The position numbers and the translations under genes are program-made. A stretch of DNA of 6,845 nt from a virus, in UHGV virus genome UHGV-0274194. One strand, written 5' to 3'. Positions within the stretch are counted from its first letter, which is position 1. Every line of letters begins with the position of its first letter. The notes beneath the pieces are model-generated. The model ran no database searches. It was not told the origin of the DNA and saw only the letters and a list, made by a program, of their open reading frames with translations. Shown here in pieces: positions 446 through 6,845 of the stretch.

Positions 446-798
446 AGTGGCAACCTCCATTGAGTAGCGGTTATTGCCACCACCGGAGTTCCTACGCTCA
501 TGGGTGGTGACCCGAACGGGGGTAGGAATACCGGCCTCAATGAATACCGGCCAGCCCGAAGGCTGCCCCGCCCGGATCACCATTATCTGACAGGGGCTAA
601 GGTGTAAACACCACAGCCCGAAAAATGGGTGTGCCTGAGCAACGACGTAAAAAAAGACGCATGGCGCGTCCGGTGTCGCCATTGAGTAACTCGGGTTCCT
701 ACGCCCGGCTGCCGATTTTGCGACAGCGGGAAAACTATACCTGGAAACGGCGAAAAGAAGCAAGCCAGAAAAAGGGGCTGTTTGCTGAACGGTCATCA

Positions 799-1065: not shown

Positions 1066-1334
1066 CGGGCTACCTCACAAAGTCCATACAGTGCCGGTCG
1101 TGTCCGTCCGGCTTCGGGTAGCTCTCTATTTTGTGAATATTTTCCTTCAGAGCAACAAGTCATTTTGTAGTGCTTCACCATACAACAGAGCGATTTTTGA
1201 ACAATGGCAAATGCTGGCAAACAGATGCAAATCAATGCATTACATTGCAGTAACTTTAAGTACTTTCACTTATATATTTCCTCATAATTAATCGGAAAAA
1301 AGACTAAATCCGACAACCCAGGCAAAAAGCAAAA

Positions 1335-1444
1335 GGTGAACAGTAGTGAACAGTAGGTGAACAGTTATACCCCCAACTATTCACCCTTTATCTTGCTGTA
1401 TTACTTATCTTTTTCTTTTCAGTGAACAGTAGTGAATAGTTATA
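1335..1444. repeat. Cluster of iteron-like direct repeats (G)GTGAACAGTA: three tandem units at 1335-1370, two more at 1422-1444, one inverted partial copy (TATTCACC) at 1377-1385
   Basis: Repeats are directly visible. GGTGAACA is the reverse complement of TGTTCACC, the type I iteron octamer bound by P4 alpha primase at ori/crr (recalled, not searched). Confidence 0.6.
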
Positions 1445-1533: not shown

Positions 1534-1605
1534 ACGGCAATGAATCGTGTTGTTGTGTCCGGCGCGGCAGAATCTCCTCAGATTGAAACGAAGAGGAGAC
1601 CCGAC

Positions 1606-2343
1606 ATGACTCATACCGCTGTTATTCCCGACTACCTTAAACCCGCAATCGAACGGCTTGAGACGGCCAGAGAGGAACATCTCATTAATGCCCGACACAT
1701 GGATGAAACCACGGCGGCCATCAGCCAGGTGAAAGCACAAAAAAAGGAACTGGAGCAGGAAAACGGCAATGATTCCGGCGCATGGCGCGCCGCCTTTCGT
1801 GCCGGTGGTGCTGTCATTACCGATGATCTGAAACAACGCCATCTGGCGCGCGTGGCACGGCGGGAACTGGCGCAGGAATGTGACAGCATGAACGAGGTAC
1901 TATCTTTTGAGTTGGACAGACTCAAAGGAGCCTGTGACCGCACGGCCAGAGCATACCGTCAGGCACATCACGGCGTCCTCAGTCAGTATGCAGAGCATGA
2001 ACTTGATGCATCCCTGCGTGAAAGCTGCGGTGCCCTCATCAGAGCAATGAAACTCAACATACTGGTTCTGAATAATCCACTTGCTAATACGACCGGGCAT
2101 CAGGGATATATCGAACCGGAAAAAGTTGTAATGCAGCAGGTGAAAGCATGGCTTGAACAGGCCGTAAAGGGCTGCAATATCCGTCTGACCGATGAACCGG
2201 TGCTGTTTAAAACAGGGCTGTCGGCTTCCACACTGCCGCATATGGAACATGACGTTGCGACCACGCCCGGTCAGCGAAAAGTCTGGCAGGAAAAAATGTG
2301 GGAACGTGAAGCTGACCTGAAAGCACGGGGGTTATTGTCATGA
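1606..2343 (+). CDS. sid: Sid, capsid size determination (external scaffold) protein
   Basis: 245-aa ORF with an AGGAG SD 8 nt upstream of ATG 1606. Position immediately upstream of, and coupled to, the Ogr/Delta gene, plus a length close to P4 Sid (about 244 aa). The ORF-track start at 1540 lacks an SD. Confidence 0.8.
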   Translation: MTHTAVIPDYLKPAIERLETAREEHLINARHMDETTAAISQVKAQKKELEQENGNDSGAWRAAFRAGGAVITDDLKQRHLARVARRELAQECDSMNEVLSFELDRLKGACDRTARAYRQAHHGVLSQYAEHELDASLRESCGALIRAMKLNILVLNNPLANTTGHQGYIEPEKVVMQQVKAWLEQAVKGCNIRLTDEPVLFKTGLSASTLPHMEHDVATTPGQRKVWQEKMWEREADLKARGLLS

Positions 2344-2601: not shown

Positions 2602-3168
2602 GTGACCACTCTGACCTTACAGCAGGCCTATGACGCCTGTCAGACGAACAAAACCGCGTGGCTGAACCGTAAAACCGAACTGGCCGCCGCAATGCAGGAA
2701 TATCAGGAATTATTGCTGGATGACAATGCATCAGGCTCCCGCAGATTACAGACGCTGCGTGACCTGATTGACGTAAAAAAATGGGAAGTGAATCAGGCCG
2801 CCGGTCGCTACATCTTCTCGCATGAGGAGGTGCAGCGCATCAGCATCCGTAACCGGCTGCATGATTTTATGCAGCAGAACGGCGCAGAGTTGACCGCCGC
2901 ACTGGCACCGGAGCTGATGGGGATTAAAAACCAGCCCGCGATGATAAAGAATCGCGCGCTTGACCGTTCAGTTTCTTACCTGAGAGAAGCTCTTTCCGTC
3001 TGGCTGACCGTTGAAAATGAAATTAATTATTCTGCACAGGATAAAGATATTTTAACGGCCATCGGATACAGGCCTGACGCGCCTTCGCGGGATGATAATC
3101 GTGAAAAATTCACCCCTGCACAGAACATGATTTACACCCGTCGACGTGCCGAACTGGCCGCGCAGTAG
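2602..3168 (+). CDS. psu: Psu, polarity suppression protein (Rho antagonist / capsid decoration)
   Basis: 188-aa ORF with a GTG start preceded by AGGAGA. Length and position after delta match P4 Psu (about 190 aa), and the sequence looks Psu-like from memory. Confidence 0.85.
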   Translation: MTTLTLQQAYDACQTNKTAWLNRKTELAAAMQEYQELLLDDNASGSRRLQTLRDLIDVKKWEVNQAAGRYIFSHEEVQRISIRNRLHDFMQQNGAELTAALAPELMGIKNQPAMIKNRALDRSVSYLREALSVWLTVENEINYSAQDKDILTAIGYRPDAPSRDDNREKFTPAQNMIYTRRRAELAAQ

Positions 3169-3214
3169 CCTGTCAAAAAATCCCCGTAAATCCCGCTATT
3201 TTTAACGAAATAAG

Positions 3215-3241
3215 CCATGCATCCATAAGGTGCATGGTTTT
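3215..3241 (+). terminator. Probable intrinsic terminator of the sid-delta-psu operon
   Basis: 7-bp perfect stem CCATGCA / TGCATGG with a 9-nt loop, followed by TTTT, 47 bp after the psu stop. Confidence 0.5.
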
Positions 3242-3573
3242 GCATGCGTTTTCTCGCTCCGGCATGACAGACCAGCGCCAGTCGTGGCGCGGCCTGAGAC
3301 CACCTTTGCACCTGCATTAAAAGCGGCCCATTAAGCGGGCAGGCGTGGCGGGGAGAGCATTGCGCGCTGGCCTTCTATCTAATAACTTTGGGTTAAAGTA
3401 AGTCACAAGGTCAATGAAAGCTTTGTGAGATACAGATAAGCTATAATTGCTGCGATTGTGAATTAATCAATCGGGATTAGCACCATTTTCTTGTGTAACA
3501 TAAAAATTTCGGTAAACTCATTCTAAAAACTCGTGAAAAAATAATTATAACTCTATTCTTAGGAGGGTGTATT

Positions 3574-4212
3574 GTGTTGAATCCTGATGATTTGGATGAG
3601 GGTGTTTATCCAGATTGCTACTGGAGTTATATAGGGCAAAAGGATTATTTGAAGCCTAACACATACTTACAAGATGCAATTGATGATTTGAATTCAGGAA
3701 GTGAACGCCGAAATATGAATAATGCAGTGCGAAATGCAAAATCGGCATTACATATGAGAGTGGATATTCTTTGTCGAGCTTTTTGTGGCCGCGAATATTT
3801 CCAAAGGAATCTAAGGAACTTTCCAAAAAAGATGGATTTCCTAGAGGGAATTGGAATAGTTAGACCTAGAATAATTGATAAAATAAATAAAATAAGAAAT
3901 GAAATTGAGCACGAGTATCGAGATGCAACTCTTGAGGAAGCAGAGGATTTCATAGATATAGTTTTATTGTTTATGGAAGCAACTAGATATTTAAATTCAA
4001 GGTTTCCATGTGAAGTTGACTTCCATGGATTGGCAGTTTCTGATGAGGTTTATTTAAGGAGAGTAGTATGCAATTGGGAAGGTGGAGAATTACTTTTTTA
4101 CTATTCAAAGCAAGAGTCACGCCGGCTTGATAACGTGCAAACCTACTCAATAAAAGTGGGTGATTATAGATACGCTCGGTGGGTAAAATTCATTCTAGAT
4201 CATTGCGATTGA
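3574..4212 (+). CDS. Cargo protein, 212 aa, putative HEPN-domain RNase (HepT-like RNxxxHxY motif); function unverified
   Basis: GTG start with a strong SD (AGGAGGG, 6-nt spacing). Motif I-R108-N-E-I-E-H113-E-Y115 equals Rx4HxY in a predicted helical context. About 30% GC, far below the flanking core. A perfect TATAAT at 3442-3447 upstream has no good -35. Confidence 0.6.
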   Translation: MLNPDDLDEGVYPDCYWSYIGQKDYLKPNTYLQDAIDDLNSGSERRNMNNAVRNAKSALHMRVDILCRAFCGREYFQRNLRNFPKKMDFLEGIGIVRPRIIDKINKIRNEIEHEYRDATLEEAEDFIDIVLLFMEATRYLNSRFPCEVDFHGLAVSDEVYLRRVVCNWEGGELLFYYSKQESRRLDNVQTYSIKVGDYRYARWVKFILDHCD

Positions 4213-4249
4213 TATACTATTTGTCCTAACTCACTAAAATAAGTATTTT

Positions 4250-4276
4250 AGACCGAGCTAGGCGTAGCCTCGGTCT
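4250..4276. terminator. Hairpin between the convergent cargo genes (candidate bidirectional terminator)
   Basis: 8-bp perfect stem AGACCGAG / CTCGGTCT with an 11-nt loop, sited between the stop of the plus-strand gene (4212) and the stop of the minus-strand gene (4285). The flanking U-tracts are weak. Confidence 0.45.
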
Positions 4277-4284
4277 AAGTGTTA

Positions 4285-5310
4285 TCAATTTGCCAATGCA
4301 GCAACTAATCTTGCTAATTCATTGAAATTACTACTGAATTCTTTTCTGTTTTCTTTCATCGTATCCAGTATTACTCCATTTTGCTCTATTTGTGCATCTG
4401 AGAGGGCGAATACCGGCGTGCTATGTTTTTGAGATTGAGCAATTAGTGAGTTAAAGTCAGAAATATTCGCCAAATTAAAGGGCTCTTTTGAGGGACAGGC
4501 ATTTTCAAAATCAGTAACCGAAATTGACATATTGATAGGATTTAAAGCTGGTATTAATGTATTAGTGACCTCATCTTTGATAATATCAATCCATCTTTGA
4601 AATGATTTTACTGGTAAATTATTTCTTGGACGATACTTCTGAGATATAAATCCGATGAATTTCGGCGGATCAATAGGGAATGGATATAATATTCCACTAT
4701 CTCTAAAGTTATTTATCTCGCTGTTCCATCTAGGAAGAACTTTTGCGAGTGACTTTATTGCCTGAGCACAGAAAAAATCTGGTGATGTAGGAACTATAAA
4801 ATAGTCACTGCACATTAAGAGACATTCATTTAATGCACCAACGCTGGGGCTCATGTCAATAAGGACATAATCAAATTCATGTTTGCGCGCAGTCTCACGC
4901 AAAAAAGCTCCGATGCTGCCGGGGATATTTCTAATTGCGGGAATAGCAGCGCTGGTTGTCAGCGCAACTCCAATCTGTGTTTCAATTTCTGATAAATAGA
5001 TGCTACCACACAATAAACTTAAATTTGGATTTGTTGTGACTAATGGGTCGGATGGTATAACTTTTCCTAAAGAACCATCTACAACAGGTTTGATGCAACT
5101 ATAAATATCACAGTTTGGATTGTTTTTATAGATTTCATCAAAGTCATCAGTGGTCGAATAGCCCAAAGCTAAGGCTGTCAAATTACATTGTGGATCAGCA
5201 TCAACTATTAAAACTTTATAGCCAAGATTAGCTAGCATCCACCCCATGTTAAAAGTCGTGGTTGTCTTACTAACACCACCTTTATGATTAAATAAAGATA
5301 TTATTTTCAT
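4285..5310 (-). CDS. ParA/MinD-like P-loop ATPase (deviant Walker A), 341 aa, with a long C-terminal extension
   Basis: N-terminus FNHKGGVSKTT is a deviant Walker A (KGGxxK[ST]); A' motif VLIVDADPQ; Walker B FDYVLIDMSP. AAGGA SD 7 nt upstream of the ATG. About 36% GC. Confidence 0.8.
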   Translation of the reverse strand: MKIISLFNHKGGVSKTTTTFNMGWMLANLGYKVLIVDADPQCNLTALALGYSTTDDFDEIYKNNPNCDIYSCIKPVVDGSLGKVIPSDPLVTTNPNLSLLCGSIYLSEIETQIGVALTTSAAIPAIRNIPGSIGAFLRETARKHEFDYVLIDMSPSVGALNECLLMCSDYFIVPTSPDFFCAQAIKSLAKVLPRWNSEINNFRDSGILYPFPIDPPKFIGFISQKYRPRNNLPVKSFQRWIDIIKDEVTNTLIPALNPINMSISVTDFENACPSKEPFNLANISDFNSLIAQSQKHSTPVFALSDAQIEQNGVILDTMKENRKEFSSNFNELARLVAALAN

Positions 5311-5332: not shown

Positions 5333-6499
5333 TTACTTTAAAAGATAGTTGCTATACCACTGAAGCATTTCCCTTCTTCTTTCAAGGTATTGAGCATGAT
5401 TATATGTTCCTCGAATACTATTCTTATCAACATGAGCAAGTTGCAACTCAATCCATGCACTATCAAACCCTTGTTCATGCAATATTGTCGACATTGTATG
5501 TCTGAAACCGTGACCTGTAGCACGACCTTTATAACCCAGTAGTTCAATTACTTGCGACACACTCTCCTTAGATATTGGTTTGTTACGGTTGTTTCGCCCA
5601 ATAAAAATGTAAGGATAGTGTCTTGTAATAGGTTTTAGTTGGTTAAAAAGATCAACGACTTGTGTTGATAGAGGGATAATATGGGGTCTGCGCATTTTCA
5701 TTCGTTCTGCGGGGATTTCCCATAAACCTCTCTCAAGGTCAACCTCATCCCATGCTGCAAAGCGCATCTCTTGAGTTCTCACACCGGTGAGCATAACTAT
5801 CTTTGTTGCATTTTTCGTTATGATGCTACCGGTATACGCTTCGAGATCCTGAATAAAATGAGGCAATTCTTCGGCAGATAGAAATGGATGATGTTTTTGT
5901 TTAGGAACGGCCAGAGCGATGGCTAAATCAGGCGCAGGATTGTATTCAGCGCGGCCAGTTATGATTGCGTAGCGATAAACCTCACCGCACCTCTGACGCA
6001 CCTTACGTGTTTTCTCTAGTGCCCCACGCTTCTCTATTCGTCGCAATACTTCAAGCAGTTCTAACGGTTTGATTTCACTGATAGGGCGTTTACCAATGAA
6101 CGGGAACACATCTTGCTCAAATGTCTTAATGATTTCTTCGCGATAGGCCACTGTCCAGCGGTCAGCTTTGTTAGTGTACCATTCTCGACATATGGTTTCG
6201 AATGAGTTCTCTGTTGAGAGTTGCTGTGCCAGTTTTTGGGCTTTACGTTCTCCCACTGGGTCTATGCCGTTTGCTACCTGCTTACGAGCGGTATCGCGTT
6301 TCTCACGTGCTTCTGCGAGGCTCACAAGGTTGTAGCTGCCAAATGACATTAGCCGTGCTTTACCGGCAAAACGAAAGCGGAAGCGCCAGCCCTTTGAGCC
6401 GTCTGGATTGATGAGTAATGACAGGCCTTGTCCATCGTTCAGTGTGTAGGGTTTGTTTTGGGGCTTTGCTCGTTTAATTTGTATATCTGTTAGTGGCAT
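5333..6499 (-). CDS. int: P4-type tyrosine site-specific integrase (selC-targeting family)
   Basis: 388 aa. The N-terminal arm-binding region ([24 protein letters not shown]) is typical of P4-like integrases, and catalytic-core motifs are present (R in GVRTQEMR, HxxR in GHGFRHT, LAHV, Y in RGTYNHAQY). It is adjacent to and co-oriented with the tRNA 3' end. Confidence 0.9.
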   Translation of the reverse strand: MPLTDIQIKRAKPQNKPYTLNDGQGLSLLINPDGSKGWRFRFRFAGKARLMSFGSYNLVSLAEAREKRDTARKQVANGIDPVGERKAQKLAQQLSTENSFETICREWYTNKADRWTVAYREEIIKTFEQDVFPFIGKRPISEIKPLELLEVLRRIEKRGALEKTRKVRQRCGEVYRYAIITGRAEYNPAPDLAIALAVPKQKHHPFLSAEELPHFIQDLEAYTGSIITKNATKIVMLTGVRTQEMRFAAWDEVDLERGLWEIPAERMKMRRPHIIPLSTQVVDLFNQLKPITRHYPYIFIGRNNRNKPISKESVSQVIELLGYKGRATGHGFRHTMSTILHEQGFDSAWIELQLAHVDKNSIRGTYNHAQYLERRREMLQWYSNYLLK

Positions 6500-6660: not shown

Positions 6661-6728
6661 TGGCGGAAGATCACAGGAGTCGAACCTGCCCGGGACCGCT
6701 GGCGGCCCCAACTGGATTTGAAGTCCAG
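6661..6728 (-). tRNA. selC: Truncated tRNA-Sec (selC): the 3' 68 nt only (anticodon arm with UCA, long variable arm, T arm, 3' acceptor strand with GCCA); the 5' acceptor strand and D arm are missing
   Basis: The reverse complement CTGGACTTCAAATCCAGTTGGGGCCGCCAGCGGTCCCGGGCAGGTTCGACTCCTGTGATCTTCCGCCA matches the 3' portion of E. coli selC as recalled. The TCA anticodon and long extra arm are visible. The match stops abruptly at 6728. Confidence 0.8.
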
Positions 6729-6845
6729 AACGATGGACAAGGCCTGTCATTACTCATCAATCCAGACGGCTCAAAGGGCTGGCGCTTCCGCTTTCGTTTT
6801 GCCGGTAAAGCACGGCTAATGTCATTTGGCAGCTACAACCTTGTG
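6729..6845 (+). repeat. Perfect inverted duplicate of int codons 21-59 (partner arm 6323..6439), fused to the truncated selC and running off the window; possibly the 5'-truncated start of a second, oppositely oriented integrase
   Basis: Manual base-by-base reverse-complement comparison of 6323-6439 with 6729-6845 gives 117/117 identity. It translates on the plus strand as [39 protein letters not shown], with no in-frame start codon upstream. Confidence 0.9.

What the first reader, a model, noticed from the sequence alone, without database searches (positions are those of the whole stretch)
3574..4212. 212-aa protein with a HepT-type RNxxxHxY HEPN motif but no nucleotidyltransferase partner
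The translation contains KINKIRNEIEHEYRDATLEEAEDFIDIVLLF, that is R108-x4-H113-x-Y115, the signature of HEPN RNases (HepT/DUF86, Abi proteins, Cas13/Csm6 HEPN). HepT-like toxins are normally paired with an adjacent MNT antitoxin, and none is present: the only neighbour is the convergent ParA-like ATPase. The protein also has about 100 residues N-terminal and 95 C-terminal to the motif, larger than minimal HepT. It may be a solitary abortive-infection RNase or one part of a new pairing.
Basis: partly seen in the sequence, partly recalled or inferred. Interest (0 to 1): 0.75.

Follow-up and report, generated by a model that had tools for sequence, protein, structure and literature searches.

The report
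HEPN RNase cargo in P4 satellite
The 212-residue protein is a real, conserved HEPN-fold (probable RNA-cutting) protein carried with a ParA-like ATPase in the anti-phage "hotspot" of a P4-like phage satellite; this exact gene pair is already listed in the literature as an untested defence candidate, so it is a reasonable but not new lead.

Summary

The protein is not a HepT family member. It does not hit Pfam HepT, it has no MNT partner, and it carries an extra beta-rich domain. No Pfam, NCBIfam, PHROG or PADLOC model reaches threshold; the nearest is RiboL-PSP-HEPN, below its cut-off.

The window is a P4-like satellite at tRNA-Sec, and the gene lies with a ParA-like ATPase in the low-GC psu-int defence hotspot. 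Rousset et al. [quoted passage not shown] I did not find it among the systems they tested.

The ParA pairing is conserved in one enterobacterial clade, but each gene also occurs without the other.

Best reading: an abortive-infection-type HEPN RNase. A regulatory role for the ATPase is a live rival, with precedent in the HEPN-ParA/Soj toxin-antitoxin dyads predicted in 2013.

Novelty: new member of a known kind. Interest is moderate.

The parts
3574..4212 (+). 212-aa HEPN-family protein (GTG start; stop included)
3652..3981 (+). HEPN helical domain, residues ~27-136
   Evidence: Helices 27-40, 45-71, 73-79, 83-92, 98-113 and 120-136 in the model. About 100-120 residues aligned to HEPN structures.
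3895..3918 (+). Catalytic-signature codons R108-N-E-I-E-H113-E-Y115
   Evidence: Sequence. R108, N109, E112 and H113 invariant; Y115 in 41 of 42.
4000..4200 (+). C-terminal beta-rich module (four strands 143-194 plus helix 198-209). The model also predicts an N-terminal strand at 12-19, which I take to belong to it. Function unknown; candidate sensor, autoinhibitory or dimerisation module.
   Evidence: Secondary structure of the model. Kept over the full length in many distant relatives. No structural match reported for it.
3561..3566 (+). Shine-Dalgarno AGGAGG, 7 nt before the GTG start
   Evidence: Read from the sequence.
4250..4276 (.). Imperfect inverted repeat (hairpin) in the 72-bp gap between the two convergent genes; likely a shared transcription stop
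   Evidence: Sequence. RNAfold gives -18.7 kcal/mol for 4236-4290. It lacks a clear U-tract and was not called by the terminator scan.
4285..5310 (-). 341-aa ParA/MinD-type (AAA_31) ATPase, convergent with the HEPN gene and 22 bp downstream of int
   Evidence: Pfam AAA_31 at 9.8e-32 and CbiA at 1.2e-14. PHROG 164, ParA-like, at 1.8e-49. Deviant Walker A 'NHKGGVSKT'. Identical to system #47 protein 2.
2602..3168 (+). psu (polarity suppression / capsid decoration), the left boundary of the P4 hotspot
   Evidence: Pfam Psu at 1.6e-88.
3200..3367 (.). Conserved P4 backbone segment downstream of psu (probable cos region, about 3341-3360). Sequence shared with other P4-like elements ends here.
   Evidence: Nearly all of the 96 E. 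coli genomes that lack the cargo match only query bases 1-168 (rows H5-H15 are listed). Rousset 2022 states that the cargo abuts cos. The cos assignment is from memory and untested.
5333..6499 (-). P4-type tyrosine integrase, the right boundary of the hotspot
   Evidence: Pfam Arm-DNA-bind_3, Phage_int_M and Phage_integrase.
6665..6763 (-). tRNA-Sec, the integration site of the satellite
   Evidence: Rfam RF01852 at 44.3 bits, gathering score 47. tRNA-Sec is annotated at the same place in E. coli NZ_CP062871.

Best explanation
ORF 3574-4212 encodes a stand-alone, abortive-infection-type HEPN ribonuclease. It belongs to a widespread family that no curated model describes. It is carried as low-GC accessory cargo in the psu-int anti-phage hotspot of a P4-like satellite integrated at tRNA-Sec.

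Proposed mechanism:
1. The helical HEPN domain (residues ~27-136) dimerises, as HEPN RNases generally do, and forms a composite R108/N109/H113 active site.
2. The protein's own beta-rich module (C-terminal 143-209, with the N-terminal strand 12-19 that I take to belong to it) keeps the site inactive or senses a phage cue.
3. On infection the enzyme cuts RNA (tRNA, rRNA or mRNA), leaving 2',3'-cyclic-phosphate ends, and stops translation. This protects the clonal population and the satellite.

The neighbouring ParA-like ATPase is, on this reading, a separate cargo gene.

Shown here: the gene is real and conserved; it has a HEPN fold; the catalytic signature is invariant; it sits in the hotspot; the two genes are separable.

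Inferred: RNase activity, dimerisation, autoinhibition, the trigger, and anti-phage function.
For: Fold:
- The AF2 model has pLDDT 85.6 and pTM 0.82.
- Foldseek gives the same HEPN toxins probability 0.96-1.00.

Catalytic signature: R108, N109, E112 and H113 are invariant in 42 sequences at about 32% identity.

Hotspot context:
- Psu at 1.6e-88 and a P4-type integrase flank the cargo.
- C4 antisense RNA, isrK and tRNA-Sec are present.
- The cargo is 33-38% GC against 52-59% for the P4 core.
- The cargo is in 4 of 5426 complete E. coli genomes, while the flank is shared by 100.
- Rousset 2022 defines this locus as a defence hotspot and lists identical proteins as candidate #47, 'Likely a RNAse'.

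Stand-alone behaviour:
- Family members occur without any ParA-like gene. Neighbours include a Swt1-like double-HEPN protein (Yersinia, S. plymuthica, L009), PIN_12 (Klebsiella), AIPR followed by a terminator-like hairpin (L008), and housekeeping genes or an integron-cassette-like array.
- The ParA-like protein occurs without the HEPN gene at 80% identity in Citrobacter and at 64-73% in Pseudomonas, Aeromonas, Burkholderia and a cyanobacterium.
- The two genes are convergent and so are not co-transcribed.

RNA link: a 34%-identical, full-length relative with RNKLEHDY sits inside an rtcR / RNase Z - RtcB - X - DIP1984 - RtcA RNA-repair operon. RtcB ligates the ends that HEPN cleavage produces (established knowledge).
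Against: - No experiment exists for any member of the family.
- Rousset's paper lists it as a candidate only; the sequence is not in the tables of tested systems held as text.
- In the clade nearest the window (E. coli/Salmonella, Edwardsiella, UBA3516, Serratia marcescens) every sampled locus keeps the ParA-like gene in the same convergent position, while HEPN identity falls to 65%. That is also what a functional pair would look like.
- A constitutively expressed solitary RNase needs a control mechanism. The autoinhibitory role of the beta module is pure inference.
- I could not inspect residue geometry or a dimer model.
Confidence: 0.55

Rival explanations
1. The HEPN protein and the ParA-like ATPase form one two-gene toxin-antitoxin or defence module. 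The HEPN RNase is the toxin or effector. The SIMIBI-class ATPase is its nucleotide-dependent antitoxin, sensor or switch, taking the place that MNT holds in HepT-MntA pairs.
For: - Anantharaman et al. 2013 described HEPN + ParA/Soj-like ATPase dyads and proposed exactly this, through an ATP-dependent conformational change or phosphorylation.
- Rousset 2022 groups the two genes as one system with 25 occurrences.
- The pair keeps the same convergent layout next to int in E. coli, Edwardsiella, UBA3516 and Serratia marcescens, with HEPN at 99.5/83/66/65% identity and ParA at 99.7/94/88/87%.
- Other NTPases sit next to distant relatives: AAA_15/AAA_21 ATPases in L013 and in viral contig L033.
- A different ParA/AAA_31 protein is paired with a RelA_SpoT protein in the P2 hotspot tables.
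Against: - The genes are convergent rather than operonic.
- HEPN relatives at 55-66% identity lack ParA, and none of the 13 more distant loci probed by tblastn has one.
- Intact ParA-like genes at 64-80% identity lack the HEPN gene.
- The published dyad involves the MAE_18760 HEPN family, which this protein does not match.
- The co-occurrence could be plain linkage within one cassette lineage.
Confidence: 0.3
2. It is a HepT-type toxin of a type VII HEPN/MNT system whose MNT antitoxin is encoded elsewhere or has been lost.
For: - The RX4HXY motif is the published signature of MNT-associated HepT, and its Tyr is the AMPylation site.
- HepT structures are among the best fold matches.
Against: - The target has no Pfam HepT-like hit, and only 1 of 42 relatives has one, below threshold.
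- There is no MNT in the window, nor among the annotated neighbours.
- The protein is 212 aa with an extra domain, against about 130 aa for HepT.
- Y115 is conserved in 41 of 42 relatives, none of which is shown here to have an MNT neighbour.
Confidence: 0.03
3. It is a housekeeping or stress RNA-processing enzyme rather than a defence gene, for example one that produces or trims RNA ends for repair pathways. Its presence in the hotspot would then be incidental.
For: - A relative is embedded in an Rtc RNA-repair operon on an A. baumannii plasmid.
- Several distant relatives sit among housekeeping genes.
Against: - This copy is low-GC mobile cargo in a locus defined as a defence hotspot.
- Close relatives neighbour AIPR, PIN_12, DUF4238, SymE and toxin-antitoxin genes.
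- It is rare and patchy: 4 of 5426 E. coli genomes.
Confidence: 0.07
4. It is a catalytically inactive HEPN-fold ligand-binding or adaptor protein.
For: Many HEPN domains are non-catalytic (Anantharaman 2013, Table 1).
Against: R, N and H of the catalytic signature are invariant across the family.
Confidence: 0.03

Closest known systems
[quoted passage not shown] 2022, Table S1B)
   Same: Both protein sequences are identical, the locus is the same (between psu and int of a P4-like satellite), and the RNase prediction is the same.
   Different: Nothing differs; it is the same entity. The paper only catalogues it: 25 occurrences, comment 'Likely a RNAse'. The sequence is absent from the tested-system tables held as text.
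HepT toxins of type VII HepT/MntA (HEPN/MNT) toxin-antitoxin systems (Pfam PF01934/DUF86; e.g. SO_3166, PDB 5yep, 8xdj)
   Different: No Pfam match, no MNT partner, about 80 extra residues forming a beta-rich module, and a location in a satellite defence hotspot rather than a two-gene operon.
HEPN (MAE_18760 family) + ParA/Soj-like ATPase dyads predicted as toxin-antitoxin systems (Anantharaman et al. 2013)
   Same: A HEPN gene lies next to a SIMIBI ParA/Soj-type ATPase. The proposed logic is an ATPase antitoxin and a HEPN toxin.
   Different: The HEPN family is different: the target and 42 relatives have no hit to Pfam HEPN_MAE_28990, which I recall also covers MAE_18760. The genes here are convergent. 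The pairing is confined to one enterobacterial clade.
RiboL-PSP-HEPN family (Pfam PF18735; includes PD-T4-2B of the validated PD-T4-2 defence system)
   Same: It is the nearest sequence family: E = 0.003 for the target, and 10 of 42 relatives give sub-threshold hits. It is Abi-like and distantly related to AbiD/AbiF.
   Different: The score of 17.9 bits is below the 28.4-bit cut-off. Only profile positions 141-185 of 191 match. PADLOC gives no hit, including its PD-T4-2 models.
Single-gene HEPN abortive-infection proteins (AbiD/F, AbiJ, AbiU2, AbiV, ApeA) and ATPase-fused anticodon nucleases (PrrC, RloC)
   Same: A HEPN catalytic domain joined to a non-catalytic accessory domain, encoded on mobile elements or defence islands, with a presumed suicidal RNase mechanism.
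   Different: No sequence-level membership in any of them. The accessory module is a small beta-rich domain, mostly C-terminal, with no recognised homologue.

Membership tests
HEPN superfamily | Up-down helical-bundle HEPN fold | tested here: met
HEPN superfamily | Conserved Rx4-6H motif, usually with a polar residue after R | tested here: met
   R108-N109-x-x-E112-H113 is invariant in 42 sequences.
HEPN superfamily | Metal-independent endoribonuclease activity from a dimeric composite site | not testable with these tools
   No multimer prediction or model coordinates were available. Needs biochemistry.
HepT/MntA type VII toxin-antitoxin (Pfam PF01934 HepT-like) | Match to the HepT-like/DUF86 profile | tested here: not met
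   The target has no hit at E<=1. Only 1 of 42 relatives hits, at E = 0.0054 and below threshold.
HepT/MntA type VII toxin-antitoxin (Pfam PF01934 HepT-like) | RX4HXY motif | tested here: met
   RNEIEHEY at residues 108-115. The motif definition is from PMC7641770.
HepT/MntA type VII toxin-antitoxin (Pfam PF01934 HepT-like) | Adjacent MNT antitoxin with a GSX10DXD motif | tested here: not met
   No such gene in the window or among the annotated neighbours of relatives.
RiboL-PSP-HEPN (Pfam PF18735) / PD-T4-2B | Score at or above the Pfam gathering threshold; PADLOC PD-T4-2 model match | tested here: not met
   17.9 bits against a 28.4-bit cut-off, with only the C-terminal quarter of the profile matched. 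PADLOC gives 0 families.
MAE_28990/MAE_18760 HEPN (the family of the published HEPN-ParA/Soj dyad) | Match to Pfam HEPN_MAE_28990 or an NCBIfam model | tested here: not met
   Absent from the Pfam hits of the target and of 42 relatives. The target has no NCBIfam hit. That the Pfam model covers MAE_18760 is from my memory of its description.
MAE_28990/MAE_18760 HEPN (the family of the published HEPN-ParA/Soj dyad) | Neighbouring ParA/Soj-type ATPase | tested here: met
   An AAA_31/CbiA ATPase at 4285-5310(-), 72 bp away and convergent.
P4 psu-int hotspot cargo (Rousset 2022) | Variable genes located between psu and the P4-type integrase, next to cos | tested here: met
   Psu at 2602-3168 and int at 5333-6499. 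The cargo is present in 4 E. coli genomes while the flank is shared by 100. Identical sequences are listed as system #47.
P4 psu-int hotspot cargo (Rousset 2022) | Demonstrated anti-phage activity | not testable with these tools
   The sequence is absent from the tested-system tables held as text. Needs plaque assays.
ParA/MinD (SIMIBI) ATPases, for the neighbouring gene | Deviant Walker A KGGxxK[ST] and the AAA_31/CbiA profile | tested here: met
   'NHKGGVSKT' at residues 8-16. AAA_31 at 9.8e-32. No ParB or centromere partner was seen in the window.

The most novel reading that the evidence does not exclude
The ParA-like ATPase belongs to the same SIMIBI class as bacterial tyrosine (BY) kinases. 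It may be a new kind of enzymatic antitoxin or switch for a HEPN toxin. It could act by phosphorylating or otherwise modifying the conserved Tyr115 of the RX4HXY motif, as MntA AMPylates the equivalent Tyr of HepT. It could also act by ATP-dependent sequestration that a phage cue releases. Either way this would be a type-VII-like toxin-antitoxin or defence logic built on a partition-type ATPase.
Probability: 0.08. Interest if true: 0.8.

Novelty: new member of a known kind. Interest (0 to 1): 0.4.

Why it matters
If confirmed, it would add a compact 212-aa HEPN RNase family to the known anti-phage effectors. The family has about 1100 representative clusters and is absent from Pfam, NCBIfam, PADLOC and PHROGs. 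It would also supply a functional annotation for one of the untested cargo types of the P4 satellite hotspot.

The conserved pairing with a ParA-like ATPase in one clade is a tractable test of a 2013 prediction that, as far as I found, has never been examined: that partition-type ATPases can act as antitoxins or regulators of HEPN toxins.

The Rtc-operon relative suggests a direct link between this family and RNA-repair pathways.

Tried and rejected
**Searches that returned nothing useful**
- Sequence searches of the PDB with the close (A1) and broad (A2) profiles gave no meaningful hit; the best was E = 0.14 to a DEAD-box helicase.
- Foldseek against BFVD viral structures gave nothing credible.
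- The afdb50 library was not available.
- PADLOC, NCBIfam and PHROGs have no family for the target.
- tblastn against 50,697 phage records found no match, and only 4 distant plasmid matches.
- DefensePredictor (Science 2026) supplements: neither the accession nor the sequence was found in the held text; some files are truncated.

**An RNA antitoxin or ncRNA near the gene, as in type III toxin-antitoxin systems or AbiF-like systems**
- Rfam has no hit in 3169-4300.
- There are no tandem or inverted repeats of note.
- The upstream 210 bp are not conserved across family loci.
- I rejected this idea.

**A hidden MNT or other small partner on the opposite strand**
- Three of the four other ORFs have no Pfam hit and one has only a chance-level hit.

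**Other attempts**
- The 181-aa gene upstream of the Aeromonas ParA-like gene is not a cryptic HEPN relative: hhalign probability 0.5%.
The narrower one (A3) returned only 10 loci, so the neighbour census is small.
- The promoter scan found no sigma-70-like site upstream of the gene on the + strand.

Full report
**1. The observation**

The ORF at 3574-4212(+) is present. It starts at GTG, 7 nt downstream of an AGGAGG ribosome-binding site, and encodes 212 aa.

An Rx4H pair alone is weak evidence, because it appears in 32% of shuffles of this same protein. The fuller RNx3HxY appears in 0.16%.

What makes the motif meaningful is conservation:
- The word-indexed search found 25 clusters at 55-93% identity, all enterobacterial where a source name is given, and none carrying a Pfam domain.
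- The exhaustive HMMER search with the family profile found 1095 representatives at E<=1e-3 and 504 at E<=1e-10. Most are 210-260 aa and many align end to end.
- In 42 of these, averaging 32% identity to each other, D38, N50, N105, R108, N109, E112 and H113 are invariant. N54, K56 and Y115 are each kept in 41 of 42.

**2. Fold**

An AlphaFold2 model built on the family alignment is confident, with mean pLDDT 85.6, pTM 0.82 and no segment below 50. It has three parts:
- a short N-terminal strand (12-19);
- a helical domain (27-136), in which R108-H113 close the helix 98-113;
- a C-terminal four-stranded sheet plus helix (143-209).

The alignments cover about 100-120 residues, which is the helical domain only. 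The beta-rich module found no counterpart.

I could not inspect coordinates or model a dimer. The statement that R108/H113 line a composite cleft therefore remains an inference from how HEPN enzymes generally work.

**3. Family placement**

No curated model claims the protein:
- Pfam gives only HEPN_RiboL-PSP at 17.9 bits (cut-off 28.4), matching the last quarter of the profile, and DUF4145 at E = 0.16.
- Among 42 relatives, 10 give sub-threshold RiboL-PSP hits, one gives a sub-threshold HepT-like hit, and one gives a DUF4145 hit.
- PADLOC, NCBIfam and PHROGs return nothing.
- Sequence search of the PDB returns nothing.

It is therefore a HEPN-superfamily member by fold and motif. It is not a member of HepT/DUF86, RiboL-PSP/PD-T4-2B or MAE_28990/MAE_18760.

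**4.

The window is the right half of a P4-like satellite:
- AlpA (799-1065, -)
- a sid-position ORF (1540-2343)
- delta/Ogr (2340-2585)
- psu (2602-3168, Pfam 1.6e-88)
- a P4-type integrase (5333-6499, -)
- C4 antisense RNA, isrK and c4-a1b1 at 500-740
- tRNA-Sec at 6665-6763

The same arrangement is annotated at selC in E. coli NZ_CP062871.

Between psu and int lies a 2.1-kb stretch of 33-38% GC, against 52-59% for the P4 core. It holds only the HEPN gene and a convergent 341-aa ParA/MinD-type ATPase (AAA_31 at 9.8e-32, Walker A 'KGGVSKT').

The full cargo is in 4 of 5426 complete E. coli genomes. Nearly all of the other 96 matching genomes share only the first 168 bases after psu.

Rousset et al. 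2022 define exactly this psu-int interval as a hotspot of anti-phage systems. [quoted passage not shown] Its two protein sequences are identical to those of the window (string equality of the HEPN protein checked).

The sequence does not occur in their tables of tested systems as held here. I conclude that it was catalogued and not assayed.

**5. Is the ParA-like ATPase a partner?**

For:
- The convergent pair next to int recurs in E. coli, Edwardsiella, an Enterobacteriaceae MAG and Serratia marcescens.
- Across these, HEPN identity falls to 65% and ParA identity to 87%.
- Anantharaman et al. 2013 described HEPN + ParA/Soj dyads and proposed the ATPase as antitoxin.
- AAA_15/21 ATPases adjoin two distant relatives.

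Against:
- HEPN relatives at 55-66% identity have other neighbours. These are a 389-aa Swt1-like double-HEPN protein (Yersinia, S. plymuthica, L009), PIN_12 (Klebsiella), and AIPR followed by a terminator-like hairpin (L008).
- None of 13 more distant loci probed by tblastn has a ParA-like gene.
- The ParA-like protein belongs to a very conserved 340-aa subfamily, at 60-95% identity from Enterobacterales to a cyanobacterium.
- That subfamily occurs intact without the HEPN gene in Citrobacter (80%), P. syringae (a P2-like prophage), Aeromonas, Burkholderia and Nodosilinea.
- The two genes are convergent. They are separated by a 72-bp gap containing a hairpin of -18.7 kcal/mol.

The genes are thus separable in both directions, and the pairing is clade-specific. 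I favour independence (0.55) over a functional pair (0.30). Only an experiment can decide.

**6. Other checks**

I looked for an RNA antitoxin or conserved ncRNA and found none:
- no Rfam hit near the gene;
- no repeats of note;
- no upstream conservation across the family.

No MNT or other small partner is hidden on the opposite strand.

One relative (34% identity, full length, RNKLEHDY) is embedded in an rtcR / RNase Z - RtcB - X - DIP1984 - RtcA operon on an A. baumannii plasmid. RtcB seals 2',3'-cyclic-phosphate/5'-OH breaks, which are the products of HEPN cleavage. This context supports an RNA-directed activity for the family.

**7. Mechanism proposed**

Shown here:
- a real, conserved gene;
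- a HEPN fold;
- an invariant catalytic signature;
- residence in a defence hotspot of a mobile satellite;
- no obligatory partner.

Inferred:
- dimerisation to a composite RNase site;
- control by the beta-rich module, or alternatively by the ATPase;
- activation by infection;
- RNA cleavage leading to abortive infection.

**8. Comparison and novelty**

It works like HepT and the Abi-type HEPN proteins, but it fails the membership tests for each named family.

The entity itself is already in the literature as an untested candidate, and the HEPN-ParA idea dates from 2013. I therefore rate it a new member of a known kind, with moderate interest (0.4).

The most novel reading still open is that the SIMIBI ATPase, a relative of BY-kinases, modifies Y115 or gates the RNase. 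I put that at about 8%. Y115 is conserved in 41 of 42 relatives, including relatives whose loci lack a ParA-like gene, which argues that the Tyr is not there for ParA.

Noticed in passing
L036 3905-4555 (A. baumannii plasmid NZ_CP098797.1): A 34%-identical, full-length family member with RNKLEHDY lies inside an RNA-repair operon: rtcR / RNase Z - RtcB - X - DIP1984 (DUF6847) - RtcA. A HEPN-type nuclease inside an Rtc operon is unusual. It hints at a self-inflicted-damage-and-repair or RtcR-signalling role.
   Followed up: partly
window 4285-5310 (-); L021-L031: The ParA-like ATPase belongs to a 340-aa subfamily conserved at 60-95% identity from Enterobacterales to Pseudomonas, Burkholderia, Halomonas and a cyanobacterium. 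It has no ParB in any inspected locus. It is often found in prophage or satellite variable regions: a P. syringae P2-like tail-fibre region, and Burkholderia next to Imm_superinfect. An orphan ParA that mobile may itself be a defence or exclusion gene.
   Followed up: partly
L021-L024 5001-6634 (Citrobacter): An 80%-identical ParA-like gene persists without int or HEPN at the same yicI/yicJ-selC locus. It is followed by a convergent 63-aa RHH/HicB-like ORF and a SymE toxin gene. This looks like a decayed P4-like remnant.
   Followed up: partly
L010 6736-7905, L012 6736-7905, L009 6695-7864: In Yersinia, Serratia plymuthica and a metagenomic contig the HEPN gene is followed, co-directionally, by a 389-aa protein. 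That protein has a Swt1-like HEPN domain above the Pfam threshold and a second sub-threshold HEPN-like region. This may be a multi-HEPN cassette.
   Followed up: partly
L013 1142-4403; L033 4947-7519: Two distant relatives, in Massilia and in an IMG/VR viral contig, neighbour AAA_15/AAA_21 ABC-type ATPases. In Massilia there is also a D12 adenine methyltransferase in an apparent operon. The arrangement recalls PrrC/RloC-style ATPase-HEPN coupling.
   Followed up: no
L026-L029 3443-3988 (Aeromonas): The Aeromonas ParA-like gene is preceded, 12 bp upstream and co-directionally, by a 181-aa protein with no Pfam hit. It is not related to the HEPN family (hhalign probability 0.5%).
   Followed up: partly
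L002-L004 (Serratia marcescens): The int - ParA - HEPN block is present, but P4 genes are replaced by a colicin (ColA_N/Colicin), a Microcin-domain (PF03526) gene and a TonB_C gene. The three-gene block therefore moves or survives independently of the P4 core.
   Followed up: no
window 500-740 (-): Rfam finds C4 antisense RNA (81 bits), isrK (71 bits) and the c4 a1b1 target. This is the P4-type RNA immunity region, intact.
   Followed up: no
window 1334-1365 and 1421-1440: Short tandem 10-nt repeats (AGTGAACAGT-like) lie in the AT-rich gap between the AlpA and sid-position genes. They may be regulator-binding sites.
   Followed up: no
window 1540-2343 (+): The ORF in the sid position has no significant Pfam hit here. 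Its Edwardsiella counterpart hits Psu weakly, which suggests sid-like and psu genes are distant paralogues.
   Followed up: no
window 3341-3360: GGCGTGGCGGGGAGAGCAT resembles the P2/P4 cos cohesive-end sequence as I remember it. It lies in the segment conserved among P4-like elements, just before the cargo begins.
   Followed up: no
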